Below, piece by piece: positions 18,001 to 24,000 of a stretch of 64,000 nt of DNA. Location: NCBI RefSeq assembly GCF_017348835.2, contig NZ_CP071375.1, one strand, 5' to 3'. Source of the DNA: Escherichia coli. Lineage in GTDB: Bacteria; Pseudomonadota; Gammaproteobacteria; Enterobacterales; Enterobacteriaceae. Positions within the stretch are counted from its first letter, which is position 1. The number at the start of each line of letters is the position of its first letter. The position numbers are program-made.

Positions 18001-21000
18001 TCTCCCCCGCCGGGTCTCTTACTCCTCAGATTCGTAAGCTGTGAAGACAGCGACCTCCGTCTGGCCGGTTCGGATTCGTACCTCGCAGAGGTCTTTCCTC
18101 GTTACCAGTGCCGTCACTATGACGGTTAAACAGATGACGATCAGGGCGATTAACATCGCCTTTTGCTGCTTCATAGCCTGCTTCTCCTTGCCTTTCGGCA
18201 CGTAAGAGGCTAACCTACGTGTGTAGAGCATAGATATGGCCTCAGATTAATGTTAAGCGTCTTGCCGGACGCGTAATGTTAACTGGGGCTTTTCTCTATC
18301 TGCCTTTGGTGTTGATGCCCGAGGCAGATAGCCTCAAGCACCCGCAGCAATTCTACTTAACTACCGTTACCTCGCCAATATGAAATCAATCAGAAAGGTG
18401 ATCCATAAGAACAACAGCAAGACAATAAATTGCCATTACAGCAGCAATAGCCAGCGCACATTTGAGAACCAGCACCACAACCTCCTGTATTGGACGTACA
18501 CCAGTCCTGATAAATATGAGGCTGTCTCGTCAGTGATTCAATACAACTACTGGGTATAGTTTCTATGATTTTGTTCTGTGGAAATGGAAAACAGCAACCA
18601 GTCACCACCAGCACTTCTTTAAACATGCCAAGTCACACGCAAGCCAACATTATAGTTCCCTTTGAGCGAGCAGATGAAGCTAGCAAAAATATTGATCACT
18701 TAGGATGCATTACTAACGTTGCTATGTGTTAACGAACAGGGAGTGGGTCATCAGCATAAATATTTATGCAGTAGGTTTCTTTTAGGACTAGATTAATCAA
18801 AAACATTTAGATAAAATTATAAAATCAAGAAATTGGTGGCAATTAATCTTTAATTGTGCCAGCTGAATTTCGTTATTATAGAAGATTAGCTTTTTTTTGA
18901 GTGTTTGGAGAGTAAAATGTTAGAACCACCAAAGAGTTATAATGAAATGTTGCCTATGCTCCATAAGGCGACTTTTATTACTACATTTATATTTTACCTA
19001 TCATTAGTCATTTATGGCTACATGCCATTGGTTGGCATTAATGCCAAGTATATCCCCCCCGTTAAAGACTACGAGGAATTTATTAAATGGATATTAACCT
19101 TTGGCATATTACCAATTGCATCTTCAGTTTTTTGGTCAGTAATTAGTGGAGCTTTAGATCTACATAATAATGTAGCAAAAATTATTGGAATAAGGAAGAT
19201 GTGGGATAGTCATTTAATTATTAAACCATTAGCAAAAATTGCAGGCGTTACGAGAAAATTAACTACTGATGAATCTCACAAGGTAATGAGTAAACTGTAT
19301 TACCCAGAAGTTAAAGAGTTAAAAGACAAACATTACGTTGAACTTTTCTGGAACAAAGTTTATTACTTTTGGGTTTTCTTTGAACATACAGTAATCGCAT
19401 TTGTTACTATTTTAATAATAAGTATCGCCAAATTAACAAATATATTCTCTGTTACTGGCTCTTTAATTAATCTTTGGTTGTGGATTATTTCTCTTGTCGC
19501 ATTTGACTTCCTTATTTTCATAGCATCAGTTAAACCAAGAACAGAAAGCCAAGTAAGACAAATACCTGATAGCAAAATAAAAGAATTCTTTAACAATAAC
19601 AATATTTTTTAAACGAGGTTGATTTTGAATTACAAAATAAATGGAATAAACATACGTTCAGAAAATGCAGCGAAACCGCACACTATGCCATCTAACTATC
19701 TCTGTAAACAGATTGAAAGCACTAATAAAAATGGCAATGCCCTTGATTTTGGATGTGGAAAACTTAGATATTCAGAACAATTAGTAAATAAATTTGAAAC
19801 TGTGACATTTTTAGATTCCAGAAGACAACTAGAAAGAGTGCAAATTATCAGAGGTGTACAAACCACGATTCCAGATTACGTGATAAATAACTATAAGAAT
19901 GCTAATATTGTTTCTTATGAAAATATAGATAAAATAACAAATCATTATGATTTCATACTTTGCGCAAACGTGCTTTCCGCAATTCCATGTGAATCCACAA
20001 TTCACAAAGTCCTCAGTGCGATTAGAGAATTATTAAAGAGTGATGGTGAAGCACTGATTGTCAATCAATACAAAAGTTCTTATTTCAAGAGGTACGAGAG
20101 CGGTATTAAACATTTGCATGGGTATATATACCAAAACTCTCGCAATGCTTTCTACTATGGTTTATTAGATGTGGATACTGTAAGTAAAATATGCTCAGAT
20201 AATAATTTAGAAATAATAAAATCATGGAGCAAAGCAGGTAGTTCATATGTGGTTGTTGGTAAACATATACATATTTAGTTTATTTCAACAAATTATTAGA
20301 AAGAGTGATTTGCTTGTTAATTATTAGCTCGGCAGTGCCGGATCAACATGACCCTGCCACTTAGGCCATTGCCGGTTTACCTACTTTTGTAAGGTTCAGC
20401 ATGAAGTTTTTATATACTCTTCCTAATATCAATAGTGATGCTCGCTTATGTTAGCTGCTTCTTGTACATAGTAGCCTTCTCCGACAGTACTGCAATGAGC
20501 GGAGAGTAAAAGTCGATAAACAATAAGGAGGTTCACAATAAATATTTCTCGGTGAAACTTTCAAAGCATTCTCTGTTTTGCTAAATCGACAATTATAAAT
20601 CAACAACATTTAGTGTTATATCAATATTATTTAGCCTTGCAATCTCTGATGAATCACTTGCTATTTTAGCTTTTAATTTATCAATATTAATCATATCTTC
20701 ATGGCTTATATAAACCATATCACCTTGGTTAACTTTAGATTTGTTCACTATGGCTTGAATAACAGACAAATCATCCATTACACCTCTCATAAATTTCACC
20801 ATGCTTTGATCTTTGAAGTCAGATATCGATTTTGAACGTTGCTTACGTTGAATTGTTCCTTTTGTAATTACTTCATTAATTTCTTTTAAACCAGTGAGCA
20901 TATCAGACAGACTGCCTTCGCAACTCATCCGATGTTTTATTGCATTGCGATTAATAATATTGAGTATAATTTCGAGTGAATCTTTATCACTCCATGGATG

Positions 21001-24000
21001 TAATGATGTATAATCATGATGGCGTCGAATGGCGTCAATCATATCCTGGACCATATCTTCATCTGCTTTATCGCAAAGTTCATTCACGAAATAGCTGGGG
21101 TCGATTATTTTACAATAACTTGGAGTTAGGTATCTTGAGGCTTTACAAAAACCAAAAATATATAAAGTAGAGTATTTATCTTTCAGACTCTCTCCTATTT
21201 CATTTATTTTCTCAAAAGATTCGATAGTTTTTTTAATTTTTGCTGGACTTGCATTCGTAGTAACTTGAACTGCTATCATGTTTTTATTATCAGCTAAATC
21301 AATGGCGGGAAAATTAACTTTAATCTGATTCATGTTTACCAGTTCACCCATTTTCAGCGCGCGAAACATAAAGATGGTCAATGACTCAATTATTCTTTCC
21401 ATGTCATGAAAGCCTGCCTGTTTGCGTTGCGCGATATAAAGCTGGAGTAGTGCAATATCACTCTGTAAGTTTCTAATAAGTGGATCAATCATAGCTAATA
21501 ATCCTTTTCAATGAAGCTGGAGGTGTGTTTAACTATTAGTTAAATTTCTATTTTTATAGAAACAAGCTTTACAACTTCATCAAAGTTTCTCAAATCCTAA
21601 TCCACTTTGCAAATCCACTAACCATGCTGAATGCTTTCTGTTGTTAAACATATCCGCTGCTGGCACCAAGCAGACAAACACACTAACTCTACCCTACTCC
21701 ACAAAAGAGCCAATCAATATCTGAACTAATAAACTTTAATCTCATCACTTCAATAAATATCGAGCATTTCCCTGATAGAATGCTAGTATGCGCTGCATAA
21801 CTTCACTCTTCCGGCACTCGCGACAGATTATGTTCTGACGCCTGTCGTAGCGACGTATTTCTCCGTCAGGTAATGACCAGATAAGGTCCGGATCAACCGC
21901 AGATGGTTCCTTCAGCTTTGCCCTTGAGAGCTTTTTACGGGCATTTTGCCAGTCCTTACGCGCCTGTTCAGACGGGAATAACCCGTAACCAGAGTTGTAT
22001 ACATCGCCGCTGGCAACCAGCTCTCTTGCGAGAACGCTCATCAGATATCTTGTCGCACCTGTCTTGACTTCCAGTTGCCGTAACGTCTCACGCCCACTCC
22101 GGCGTACGAGTTCAACAACCTGCCCTTTAATTTTTTCCCGCTCTTCTTGTGTAAAAACTTTTGCCACAAGCCCTCCTGAAAATTACCTCATGACCAGAAA
22201 TTAACACTTACCCCCTGAAGCCCGGCGGAATTTCGGTATCCGGCTCAGAAATATGATTCACACAACGCTGTACAGACGAACGCCCCAGGCGGATAACCAG
22301 TTCATCCCATTTTTCGCGAAGCTTTGACGGACTCATGATATTTTTTACCCAGAATGGATCCCGCTGCACCCGACCAAACATTTCACAAATTTGTCTGTGA
22401 GTTCTGCCATCCAGCATCCGCATTGTGCGCACGTCGTTGGCCCATGCGGTCCAGTTGGGTTCTTTCGGTCGCGAAATCTCGCCATCATCGCTGGCGGCCT
22501 GCTCGTAAAGACTCACGATTCGCCCCCAGATCCACTGCGCACACGCCAAATCTTCCTGGCTGCCCCACTGGCGTTTTTTCGCACTGAACACAACCGCGTC
22601 AGGGTGTCGGGTTAAAAAATCCTGTTCAACCGTCTGCGGGTCCGGTTGCGAAGCTTCCGGACGAGAAGTCTTTTTATTCTCTGTAGTAATCTCTGTTGTA
22701 TTCTCTGTAAGATCATCAGGCCATTTTGACCCGATGACATTGAGTCGTTTTGAACCAATGGAGCGTTTCATTTTGACCTCTTCCATCGTGTCATTTTGAC
22801 CTGATGGAGCGGCGCATTTTAAACCGATGGATTCGCTCAATTTGCCACCATCTAAAAGCTCGCTCCCGTAGTTGATCGTGTAGAAATTGGTCATATCGCG
22901 CTTTGATTTATTGAGCTTTTCACAACGCAAAAGCCCCAGCGTTTTCAGACTTGCAAACGCGCGCTTTAACGTTGACTCTGACCAGAATGGGAACTGTTCC
23001 AGCCATTGTTCCGTTGTGTTATAAATCCAGCGAACACCATCACATTCCATGCCGGAGTTGGTATCTCTCAACCAGTAGTGCAGTTGTTGCAAAACAATGG
23101 CTTCGTTTAAGCCAATTTTCATTGCCAGCTGCGTGTTTATAACCAGTGGGCGTTCAGCAAAAAGAAGACTCATAATTCCATCCAGCTTTTTGTTGGTATT
23201 GCTGTCGATACGCAAGCTTGAAAGCAATTGCTTTTTCTATAAGTTCGTCAGTTTCACGATCTACAACGGCAGGATCTGCAAAAAGCAGTCCGGATTCCAC
23301 CACATCGCCATATTCTTTATTTAACCCGGCGATCATGTACGTAATACTTTTTCCATCACTGATCTCACGATACAACCTGAAATCACTAATCCGGATAGCC
23401 TCCATAATCGCAGGCACTAGCGCCGTGAACTTTTCACGCTTATCCCTGGTGTCGATAGCCTTCCAGCGTTCGAATATCTTCACTCGATTAACGCCAAGCG
23501 CTCGCTGATCAACCGCGCCACCTTCATCTGTGACACGCTGAACATCGATGTTCGGGCGCTCTTTCAAAGCCCAGAATGCTTCAGTGATTAATATCGTCGC
23601 CTGCTCCTGTGTCATTCCTGGTCGACATATCCAGGCATCCAGAGCCTCACGAGCCTGTTCAGGAGTGATTTTCATTGTTCAACCGCCCCGCCCGCTTCGT
23701 CTTACGATATTCATCATAAACTTTGGGATCATACTGAAGCTCCCCGCCAGATGCCTCCTGTAGACGCATCGCGCGACCTTCGGGAACTAAATCCCCTTTC
23801 CAGCTATAAAGCGAAGCCAAACGAATACCTGCTGCTTGTGCAAGTTTTGTTTTTGAACCGAAATACAAAAGAGCGTCAGTTTTAAGCATTTAAAACACCT
23901 TTATTGTTAGTCATGACTAACAAAATAGATGTTAACAAAAACATAGTCAATACGATTTAGCATTAGCTAACTATGGAAACAAAAAATTTAACTATCGGCG

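What the first reader, a model, noticed from the sequence alone, without database searches (positions are those of the whole stretch)
18650..21700. AT-rich cargo block in the prophage early region: membrane protein + putative methyltransferase, convergent with a possible SMEK-like protein
Between hok/mok and the replication-region genes, where the K-12 Qin prophage carries relBE-ydfV-flxA, this prophage has about 3 kb of markedly AT-rich DNA with three ORFs unrelated to core phage functions: a 235-aa multi-pass membrane protein and a 219-aa protein with an LDFGCGKL SAM-methyltransferase-like motif (6 bp apart, plus strand), and a convergent 299-aa protein whose N-terminus (NFPAIDLADNKNMIAVQVTT) recalls SMEK-domain proteins seen in defence islands. 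This is a moron or defence hotspot position, and the membrane-protein/methyltransferase pair has no obvious phage role.
Basis: partly seen in the sequence, partly recalled or inferred. Interest (0 to 1): 0.65.

Follow-up and report, generated by a model that had tools for sequence, protein, structure and literature searches.

The report
Prophage cargo: YmfE/YmfD pair plus SMEK nuclease
A 2.9-kb AT-rich insert in a variable, defence-gene-rich slot of an E. coli lambdoid prophage carries two separate accessory modules of untested function: a membrane-protein/methyltransferase pair related to the K-12 e14 genes ymfE-ymfD, and a stand-alone Mrr-like "SMEK" nuclease gene.

Summary
Window ~18760-21670 is the lowest-GC stretch of the window (32% against 48%). 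It carries three intact genes under purifying selection: a 4-TM protein, a class I SAM methyltransferase 6 nt downstream, and a convergent SMEK_N protein.

That pair stayed linked in every locus I checked, down to 26% identity. It occurs without SMEK in e14, P2-like and P4-like elements, a Vibrio cassette array, and next to Hachiman in Pseudomonas.

The SMEK protein is an Mrr-like PD-(D/E)xK nuclease domain with a helical-bundle C-terminus. It has no APAZ domain and no Argonaute neighbour. Homologues occur as solo genes in many defence islands and mobile elements.

The block is therefore two modules that travel together in one enterobacterial lineage (83-100% identity). The hokD-DUF977 slot is a true hotspot. 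Other prophages carry relBE, PD-T7-1, 3HP or a SIR2 protein there.

Defence or superinfection exclusion is the most likely role, but this rests on genomic association only. The genes are already annotated and the pair is a known pair of y-genes. It is a moderately interesting candidate that can be tested directly in K-12.

The parts
18760..21670 (.). AT-rich mobile cargo block (32.4% GC) carrying both modules and their upstream regions
   Evidence: GC profile. The ends are defined by where homology to the 84%-identical block in E. coli A42, which sits in a different prophage backbone, starts and stops. No terminal repeats were found.
18917..19612 (+). YmfE-like inner-membrane protein, 231 aa (an alternative TTG start at 18905 gives 235 aa). 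It has 4 TM helices and a roughly 65-aa helical loop between TM2 and TM3 that I predict to be cytoplasmic.
   Evidence: 60% identity to K-12 YmfE over the full length. AF2 model pLDDT 95.4. Best Foldseek hit is P75968 YmfE, TM-score 0.94. No Pfam, NCBIfam, PADLOC or PDB match. Nearly invariant residues: Y8, L12, H83, R93, Y129, H139, W152, E156.
19619..20278 (+). YmfD-like class I SAM-dependent methyltransferase, 219 aa (RefSeq start 19625, 217 aa), apparently co-transcribed with the membrane protein gene
   Evidence: 68% identity to K-12 YmfD. Pfam Methyltransf_23/12/25/11 and TehB. NCBIfam matches are far below cutoff and are to small-molecule methyltransferases. Invariant motifs: NAAKP, DFGCGKLRYS, DS, CxNVLSAIPC, NQxxSSYFK, YYG. 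Only weak PDB profile hits.
20279..20592 (.). 314-bp spacer between the convergent methyltransferase and SMEK genes
   Evidence: No terminator-like site was found by the scan. The fold is no more stable than shuffled sequence (z = -0.99).
20593..21492 (-). Stand-alone SMEK protein, 299 aa: an N-terminal Mrr-like PD-(D/E)xK nuclease domain (about residues 1-140) and a C-terminal helical-bundle domain (about 141-299)
   Evidence: NCBIfam SMEK_N 105 bits and Pfam PF21941 2e-22. Matches PDB 26bh_D, the Mrr domain of the Kordia jejudonensis Mrr-APAZ pAgo system, at E = 7e-8. The PADLOC Aga_REase-PNTD1-PNTD2 match covers residues 8-146 only. Invariant E36, D65, Q76, T78, K85. C-terminal model pLDDT 83, with generic four-helix-bundle hits only.
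18019..18343 (-). Left boundary marker, not part of the cargo: hokD/mok toxin gene and sok antitoxin RNA
   Evidence: ORF at 18019-18231. RefSeq hokD. Rfam RF01794 sok at 18169-18343, 114 bits.
21745..22167 (-). Right boundary marker, not part of the cargo: DUF977 gene of the phage replication region
   Evidence: RefSeq annotation. Present in most E. coli genomes.

Best explanation
The block is a horizontally mobile accessory (moron) insert in the variable hokD-DUF977 slot of a Qin/DicB-type lambdoid prophage. It consists of two functionally independent modules.

Module 1 is a ymfE-ymfD-type operon. A four-TM inner-membrane protein has conserved polar residues on a helical domain that I predict to be cytoplasmic. 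I infer that this domain docks a catalytically competent class I SAM methyltransferase of the small-molecule/protein type, not a DNA methyltransferase.

Module 2 is a single-gene Mrr-like (SMEK) PD-(D/E)xK nuclease fused to a helical-bundle domain. I infer that the helical domain controls the nuclease by sensing or oligomerisation. This would parallel the nuclease effectors of short-Argonaute systems, which are switched on by assembly.

The most likely biological role of both modules is protection of the lysogen against other phages or mobile DNA. The nuclease would degrade DNA once triggered. The membrane-anchored methyltransferase pair would act at the inner membrane, either excluding superinfection or aborting infection.

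Shown here: gene identities, obligate pair linkage, independence of SMEK, the hotspot nature of the slot, and purifying selection. Inferred only: the defence role, the YmfE-YmfD physical complex, the substrate and the trigger.
For: Pair identity: YmfE 60% and YmfD 68% identity with the same gene order. The top structural hit is YmfE.

Obligate pair linkage held in every independent context examined:
- e14
- P2-like prophages, right after ogr
- a P4-like element, between a type I-C retron RT-Toprim and gop-beta-cII
- a lambdoid prophage, after the O/P replication genes, and another beside an integrase
- a V. cholerae cassette array with ParDE/Phd
- Pseudomonas, directly downstream of Hachiman HamA/HamB
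- a metagenome relative at 26% TM identity

SMEK occurs alone in a Yersinia ICE, in integrase-borne islands, in a yebG-symE islet, in a Citrobacter Lamassu/AAA island, in a Vibrio SMEK+Abi_alpha islet and in a Pseudomonas island with SLATT_5.

The same slot holds PD-T7-1 (518 bits), Hp1-3 of the 3HP system, a SIR2 protein or relBE in other prophages.

Putative catalytic and SAM-binding residues are invariant. dN/dS is 0.11-0.28. The SMEK domain is the nuclease domain of SMEK/Mrr-APAZ short-pAgo effectors (PMC10810196; bioRxiv 10.1101/2023.06.08.544223).
Against: No experiment links any of the three proteins to phage resistance.

PADLOC 2023 has no model for the membrane protein. It gives only a weak generic hit (mad2, 1e-4) for the methyltransferase and an N-terminal-only hit for SMEK.

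The only phenotype reported for K-12 ymfD is reduced early biofilm (PMC3105296). The knockout has no growth defect (PMC12096079).

The three genes have co-diverged as one block down to about 83% identity, in different backbones and on a Citrobacter plasmid. Some functional coupling therefore cannot be excluded.

The SMEK motif is D...QxT rather than the canonical D...(E/Q)xK. Nuclease activity of this solo form is assumed.

The methyltransferase substrate is entirely unknown.
Confidence: 0.55

Rival explanations
1. The three genes form one system, a restriction-modification-like unit. The membrane-tethered methyltransferase would mark DNA or protect self, and the Mrr-like nuclease would cut DNA according to its modification state.
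For: The trio keeps its internal arrangement at roughly 100%, 88-91% and 83-85% identity, with identities of the three proteins tracking each other. It sits in two different lambdoid backbones in opposite orientation relative to the phage early operon. It also occurs on a Citrobacter koseri plasmid. Mrr-family enzymes are classically modification-dependent (general knowledge).
Against: The pair occurs without SMEK in at least 8 independent contexts, including close variants at 83-86% identity. SMEK occurs without the pair in at least 7 contexts, including homologues at 77-80% identity. The methyltransferase matches no DNA-methyltransferase family and has no (D/N/S)PP(Y/F) motif. Its matches are to small-molecule/protein-type enzymes. 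The genes are convergent, so they are transcribed separately.
Confidence: 0.1
2. The YmfE/YmfD pair is a lysogenic-conversion function unrelated to defence. It would methylate a membrane-associated lipid, quinone or envelope precursor and so change surface properties, biofilm formation or stress tolerance.
For: Deletion of K-12 ymfD reduced early biofilm, and ymfD is induced in mature biofilm (PMC3105296). The nearest families are small-molecule methyltransferases: TehB, UbiG, OvoA C-terminal domain, BioC. The partner is an integral membrane protein. Its positions next to att/int or ogr are classical conversion-gene sites.
Against: The pair repeatedly sits among validated defence systems: Hachiman, a retron, gop-beta-cII. 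In this prophage it sits in a slot that elsewhere holds defence systems. The biofilm effect was one screen result and no mechanism was given.
Confidence: 0.2
3. The YmfE/YmfD pair is an addiction (toxin-antitoxin-like) module. One partner would neutralise the other and so stabilise the mobile element.
For: K-12 ymfE is listed among genes that are 'essential only by TraDIS', alongside the antitoxins higA, hipB and relB (PMC5821084). The Vibrio homologue lies in a cassette array next to ParDE and Phd/ParE. In this prophage it sits next to hok/sok, where K-12 has relBE.
Against: e14 excises and is lost without harm in many laboratory strains. The ymfD knockout grows normally (PMC12096079). AT-rich horizontally acquired genes can lack transposon insertions for reasons other than essentiality (my inference). 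Proteins of 220-230 aa, one of them a 4-TM protein, are atypical for toxin-antitoxin pairs.
Confidence: 0.1
4. The block is decaying junk DNA with chance ORFs or pseudogenes.
For: Its AT-rich composition is typical of foreign DNA. The region is rarely studied.
Against: dN/dS is 0.11-0.28. Full-length homologues exist across Proteobacteria. Catalytic-type motifs are invariant. The block is at least 99% identical in 145 genomes.
Confidence: 0.02

Closest known systems
E. coli K-12 e14 prophage genes ymfE (b1138) and ymfD (b1137)
   Same: Same two proteins in the same order and tightly abutted: 60% and 68% identity over the full length, and a near-identical predicted fold for the membrane protein. 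Both pairs sit in prophage accessory regions beside a defence or toxin gene (lit in e14, hok/sok here).
   Different: This is a divergent allele in a different prophage type and slot: the replication-to-Q region of a Qin-like phage, rather than the int-proximal end of e14. Here it is joined to a SMEK gene. The function of ymfE/ymfD is itself unknown. ymfD was still called uncharacterised in 2025 (PMC12096079).
SMEK/Mrr-APAZ effector of short prokaryotic Argonaute systems (e.g. Kordia jejudonensis KjAgo partner)
   Same: Homologous N-terminal Mrr-like nuclease domain with the shared FPAIDLAD...AVQVT(S/T) motif.
   Different: There is no APAZ domain. The C-terminal 160 aa form a helical bundle with no match to the PADLOC profile beyond residue 146. 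No Argonaute gene lies nearby. Nothing indicates that this protein is guide-directed.
Mrr-type (type IV, modification-dependent) restriction endonucleases
   Same: PD-(D/E)xK fold with a D...Qx(K/T) catalytic signature. It is a single-gene nuclease in mobile DNA.
   Different: No recognisable DNA-binding or modification-reading N-terminal domain. No match to Pfam Mrr_cat was reported, only SMEK_N. Lysine is replaced by threonine in the QxK position, with another invariant lysine (K85) nearby.
Two-gene defence systems with a membrane effector plus a soluble partner (e.g. Kiwa, SLATT-containing conflict systems)
   Same: Architecture of one multi-pass membrane protein and one cytoplasmic protein, located in defence islands. 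There are faint structural hits to DUF4231/SLATT proteins (Foldseek E 0.013-0.47).
   Different: No sequence-profile similarity to SLATT_5 and no PADLOC hit. To my knowledge, a class I methyltransferase as the soluble partner has no precedent among characterised systems.

Membership tests
YmfE/YmfD gene pair (e14 b1138/b1137) | Membrane protein homologous to YmfE over its full length | tested here: met
   BLASTP 60% identity, E = 1e-108. Foldseek top hit is P75968 YmfE, TM-score 0.94.
YmfE/YmfD gene pair (e14 b1138/b1137) | Methyltransferase homologous to YmfD over its full length | tested here: met
   BLASTP 68% identity, E = 2e-113. A Citrobacter homologue at 85% identity is named ymfD by its source.
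YmfE/YmfD gene pair (e14 b1138/b1137) | Membrane gene immediately upstream of the methyltransferase gene on the same strand | tested here: met
   6-nt gap here. The genes abut in K-12. Same arrangement in all other loci.
SMEK_N domain family (NF033859 / PF21941) | Score above the curated threshold for the domain model | tested here: met
   NCBIfam 105.1 bits against a cutoff of 30. Pfam i-E = 2.2e-22.
SMEK_N domain family (NF033859 / PF21941) | Conserved Mrr-like active-site residues retained | tested here: inconclusive
   E36, D65, Q76, T78 and K85 are invariant in 26 homologues, and the motif is shared with the solved Kordia Mrr domain. Activity was not tested, and the canonical lysine is a threonine.
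Short pAgo system with SMEK/Mrr-APAZ effector | APAZ domain C-terminal to the nuclease | tested here: not met
   The PADLOC Aga_REase-PNTD1-PNTD2 alignment covers only residues 8-146 of the protein, positions 9-143 of a 463-position profile. The C-terminus models as a helical bundle.
Short pAgo system with SMEK/Mrr-APAZ effector | Adjacent short Argonaute (MID-PIWI) gene | tested here: not met
   The neighbours are the methyltransferase gene and DUF977. No homologue context examined shows a PIWI gene.
Restriction-modification system (methyltransferase plus nuclease) | DNA methyltransferase domain with catalytic motif IV | tested here: not met
   Only generic Methyltransf_11/12/23/25 and TehB hits. 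No N6_Mtase, N6_N4_Mtase or DNA_methylase family. No (D/N/S)PP(Y/F) in the sequence or the family alignment.
Restriction-modification system (methyltransferase plus nuclease) | Methyltransferase and nuclease co-inherited across relatives | tested here: not met
   They are linked only within one enterobacterial lineage at 83% identity or above. They are unlinked in all more distant contexts.
Known anti-phage defence systems (PADLOC-DB v2.0) | Significant match of the component proteins to a system model | tested here: not met
   Membrane protein: no hit. Methyltransferase: mad2 only, at 9.7e-5 and 19 bits. SMEK: N-terminal domain only.
SLATT membrane effectors | Sequence or structure similarity to SLATT domains | tested here: not met
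   hhalign against a SLATT_5 protein gave probability 0.7%. Foldseek hits to DUF4231/SLATT were weak, E 0.013-0.47 and TM about 0.5.
Prophage defence/cargo hotspot | Conserved flanks with variable content that includes validated defence systems | tested here: met
   Between hokD and DUF977: relBE-ydfV-flxA (K-12 and W), PD-T7-1 at 518 bits, Hp1-3 of 3HP, or a SIR2 protein. Flank DNA is in 4235 genomes and this cargo in 152.

The most novel reading that the evidence does not exclude
The YmfE/YmfD-type pair would be a previously unrecognised, widespread two-gene anti-phage or anti-mobile-element system. A class I SAM methyltransferase would be held at the inner membrane by a dedicated four-TM partner and would act as sensor or effector. 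No characterised defence system that I know of works this way. The solo SMEK-plus-helical-bundle protein would be a new single-gene nuclease defence. A bolder and less likely variant is that, in the trio, the membrane-tethered methyltransferase marks incoming DNA for the Mrr-like nuclease.
Probability: 0.3. Interest if true: 0.65.

Novelty: new member of a known kind. Interest (0 to 1): 0.4.

Why it matters
If the pair protects against phages, two long-standing E. coli K-12 genes of unknown function, ymfE and ymfD, would gain a role. A methyltransferase-based membrane defence would be added to the known repertoire. It could be tested at once with existing K-12 knockouts and phage collections. 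The solo SMEK proteins would show that the nuclease module of short-Argonaute systems also works outside Argonaute systems. The hokD-DUF977 slot of Qin-like prophages is also a practical place to mine for further systems, because its flanks are present in most E. coli genomes.

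Tried and rejected
- Family searches (PADLOC, NCBIfam, PHROGs, Pfam) gave nothing for the membrane protein.
- The PDB sequence search gave nothing for the methyltransferase alone. A family profile gave only weak generic methyltransferase hits. There were no PDB sequence hits for the membrane family or the SMEK C-terminus.
- SLATT kinship of the membrane protein was rejected by hhalign.
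- tblastn against isolated phages found no membrane-protein homologue and only a partial SMEK_N hit. These genes are prophage cargo and were not found in sequenced virions.
- I looked for terminal repeats, a terminator or a structured element in the block and in the convergent spacer. Nothing exceeded chance.
- The RefSeq protein accessions appear in no searchable paper.
- The Vibrio two-gene integron system Toutatis (64-aa TutA plus a methyltransferase) is a different system.
- The P2/P4 hotspot paper does not mention a methyltransferase.
- The short class I methyltransferase next to DUF977 in E. coli W is unrelated to this one.
- The search for related loci with the broad membrane-protein alignment failed because no stretch was conserved enough. 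The narrower alignment worked.

Full report
**1. The observation**

The three ORFs are present exactly as described.
- A membrane protein at 18905-19612 (+). Homologues and RefSeq start at ATG 18917, giving 231 aa, with a GGAG upstream.
- A 219-aa protein with ALDFGCGKL at 19619-20278 (+), starting 6 nt downstream.
- A convergent 299-aa protein at 20593-21492 (-).

GC falls to 29-35% between about 18600 and 21700, against about 50% on either side. The 2.9-kb block is the lowest-GC stretch of its size in the window, at 32.4% against 48.2%. GC3 of the three genes is 0.26-0.28, against 0.48-0.55 for flanking phage genes.

The block lies between hokD/mok plus a sok RNA (Rfam 114 bits) and a DUF977 gene. 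That gene belongs to the replication region of a Qin/DicB-type lambdoid prophage integrated at tRNA-Ser.

**2. What the genes are: the membrane protein**

The membrane protein has no match in Pfam, NCBIfam, PADLOC or the PDB. It is 60% identical over its full length to YmfE of the K-12 prophage e14.

Reading the sequence against the model gives four TM helices. Both ends and a lysine/arginine-rich helical domain of about 65 aa between TM2 and TM3 should lie on the cytoplasmic side by the positive-inside rule. This topology is my inference.

The residues conserved across the wider family lie on or next to that cytoplasmic face: H83, R93, Y129, H139, W152 and E156. The wider family has 218 representatives at E <= 1e-3 among 1.84 billion cluster representatives.

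**3. What the genes are: the methyltransferase**

The second protein is a class I SAM methyltransferase. It matches Methyltransf_23/12/25/11 and TehB. All NCBIfam matches are far below cutoff and are to small-molecule enzymes. It is 68% identical to e14 YmfD.

Its family has invariant NAAKP, DFGCGKLRYS, DS, CxNVLSAIPC, NQxxSSYFK and YYG motifs. It matches no DNA-methyltransferase family and has no (D/N/S)PP(Y/F) motif. A family profile finds only weak matches in the PDB: Rickettsia protein-lysine methyltransferases, MJ0882, TehB and UbiG. The substrate cannot be predicted.

YmfD was still listed as uncharacterised in 2025. Its knockout has no growth defect (PMC12096079). An older screen reported reduced early biofilm (PMC3105296).

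**4. What the genes are: the SMEK protein**

The third protein is a SMEK_N protein (NCBIfam 105 bits against a cutoff of 30; Pfam 2e-22).

The literature describes SMEK as the Mrr-like PD-(D/E)xK nuclease domain of SMEK/Mrr-APAZ partners of short Argonautes (PMC10810196; bioRxiv 10.1101/2023.06.08.544223). The N-terminal 140 aa match the solved Mrr domain of the Kordia jejudonensis system (E = 7e-8). They also match a PADLOC Argonaute-associated REase model, but only over residues 8-146.

In 26 full-length homologues, E36, D65, Q76, T78 and K85 are invariant.

The C-terminal 160 aa are conserved, with invariant P166, D169, R182, E192, G193, K221, D271 and K274. They have no Pfam or PDB sequence match. 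They model as a helical bundle (pLDDT 83) with only generic four-helix-bundle neighbours. There is no APAZ domain and no Argonaute gene nearby.

**5. One system or two?**

The membrane/methyltransferase pair stayed together in every independent context I examined:
- e14, next to lit and intE
- P2-like prophages of Enterobacter and Providencia, right after ogr
- a P4-like element, between a type I-C retron RT-Toprim (728 bits) and a gop-beta-cII system
- lambdoid prophages, after O/P or beside an integrase
- a V. cholerae cassette array with ParDE and Phd
- a Pseudomonas island, immediately downstream of Hachiman HamA/HamB
- a metagenomic relative with only 26% membrane-protein identity

None of these has a SMEK gene.

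Conversely, SMEK homologues at 45-80% identity are solo genes in other settings:
- a Yersinia conjugative element
- integrase-borne islands
- a yebG-symE islet
- a Citrobacter island with Lamassu-like and AAA genes
- a two-gene Vibrio islet with Abi_alpha
- a Pseudomonas island with SLATT_5

The three genes are therefore two modules.

They do travel together within one enterobacterial lineage. The trio is found at 99% identity or above in 145 complete E. coli genomes, out of 152 of 5426 that have a match. It is found at 88-91% and 83-85% protein identity in other prophage contigs, and on a Citrobacter koseri plasmid.

In E. coli A42 the trio sits in another lambdoid backbone, inverted relative to the early operon. 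Homology there defines the block as roughly 18760-21670.

Pair-only variants exist at the same divergence level of 83-86%. SMEK has therefore been gained or lost within this lineage. All three genes are under purifying selection, with dN/dS of 0.11, 0.27 and 0.28.

**6. The slot**

DNA of the DUF977/O-like flank matches in 4235 of 5426 genomes. The cargo is in 152.

In other prophages the interval between hokD and DUF977 holds:
- relBE-ydfV-flxA in K-12 and W
- a gene matching the validated single-gene system PD-T7-1, at 518 bits
- the three Hp genes of the 3HP system
- a SIR2 protein

This is a defence hotspot in the usual sense.

**7. Mechanism**

The following are shown: two maintained modules in a defence hotspot, a membrane protein obligately paired with a methyltransferase that keeps all SAM-binding motifs, and an Mrr-like nuclease domain with invariant active-site-type residues joined to a helical domain.

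The following are inferred. I think the membrane protein recruits the methyltransferase to the inner membrane through its conserved cytoplasmic domain. I also think the pair acts in superinfection exclusion or abortive infection.

For the SMEK protein, I think the nuclease is held in check by its helical domain and released on a trigger. This would parallel the assembly-activated nuclease effectors of short-Argonaute systems.

The defence role rests on association only, so I give the overall explanation a confidence of 0.55. Three rivals remain: a single RM-like three-gene system (0.1), a non-defence conversion function of the pair (0.2) and a toxin-antitoxin-like module (0.1).

The toxin-antitoxin rival gets a hint from K-12 ymfE appearing among 'essential only by TraDIS' genes next to known antitoxins (PMC5821084). 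An insertion cold spot in AT-rich DNA could explain this equally well, and e14 is lost freely.

**8. Novelty and verdict**

All three genes are already annotated in RefSeq. The pair belongs to a known pair of K-12 y-genes. SMEK_N is a named domain, and prophage defence hotspots are well known.

What I did not find in the searchable literature is:
- the obligate, widely distributed YmfE/YmfD linkage and its defence-island association
- the existence of a large solo SMEK-plus-helical-bundle family
- the hokD-DUF977 hotspot

I classify the finding as a new member of a known kind, with moderate interest (0.4). Its main value is as a candidate that can be tested directly in K-12.

Noticed in passing
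window 39244-43725 (- strand): This is a second low-GC island (33-37%) outside the prophage. A 954-aa ORF (40861-43725) matches NCBIfam 'NACHT domain-containing antiphage protein EruA' at 650 bits. That is below the curated cutoff of 1000 and covers only profile positions 399-1318. A 534-aa ORF (39244-40848) follows it and has no NCBIfam or PADLOC match. It may be an EruA variant with a different or missing N-terminal domain.
   Followed up: partly
window 18344-18760: About 400 bp between the sok RNA and the start of the mobile block carry no annotated gene and have intermediate GC (40-44%). The only ORFs are 59 aa (+) and 78 aa (-, cysteine-rich and probably spurious). Some RefSeq records call an extra hypothetical protein here. 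The origin of this stretch is unexplained.
   Followed up: no
window 17929-18343 (- strand): A complete hok/mok/sok type I toxin-antitoxin locus lies here (sok Rfam 114 bits). There is also a weak isrK-like match at 17929-18010, at 25.8 bits and below gathering. In K-12 Qin, relE and relB sit directly next to hokD instead.
   Followed up: partly
window 18917-21492 compared with L037 7160-9748: Synonymous divergence between the two trio alleles is about twice as high in the membrane-protein gene (dS 0.66) as in the methyltransferase and SMEK genes (dS 0.33 and 0.32). This suggests recombination within the block or different histories of its parts.
   Followed up: no
K-12 e14, L026 3534-4238 (ymfE): ymfE is listed as 'essential only by TraDIS' together with known antitoxin genes (PMC5821084). 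It is also listed as having a potential SOS box (PMC6590174). It was not induced in a 2024 SOS time course.
   Followed up: partly
L012 8001-11736 (Pseudomonas): Here the SMEK homologue is followed on the same strand by a 219-aa protein with no Pfam or PADLOC hit, a SLATT_5 membrane protein and a 309-aa protein, next to an integrase-like gene. This may be a multi-gene SMEK-containing system distinct from the solo form.
   Followed up: no
L017 8001-9755 (Vibrio cyclitrophicus and relatives): A two-gene islet of a SMEK homologue plus an Abi_alpha protein is inserted between matE and gcvP. It is conserved in many assemblies.
   Followed up: no
L022, L024, L025 (other E. coli prophages, same slot): The hokD-DUF977 slot also contains unannotated-function genes alongside PD-T7-1. 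These are 326-aa and 314-aa hypothetical proteins and a 200-aa integrase-like gene in MB7671. A 319-aa SIR2 protein in this slot has only weak PADLOC matches. They are further candidates from the same hotspot.
   Followed up: partly
window 14624-14873 (- strand): A phage-borne tRNA cluster lies upstream of the Q antiterminator region: Arg-TCT, Arg-TCG and a CAT-anticodon tRNA. ARAGORN calls the last one Met and RefSeq calls it Ile.
   Followed up: no
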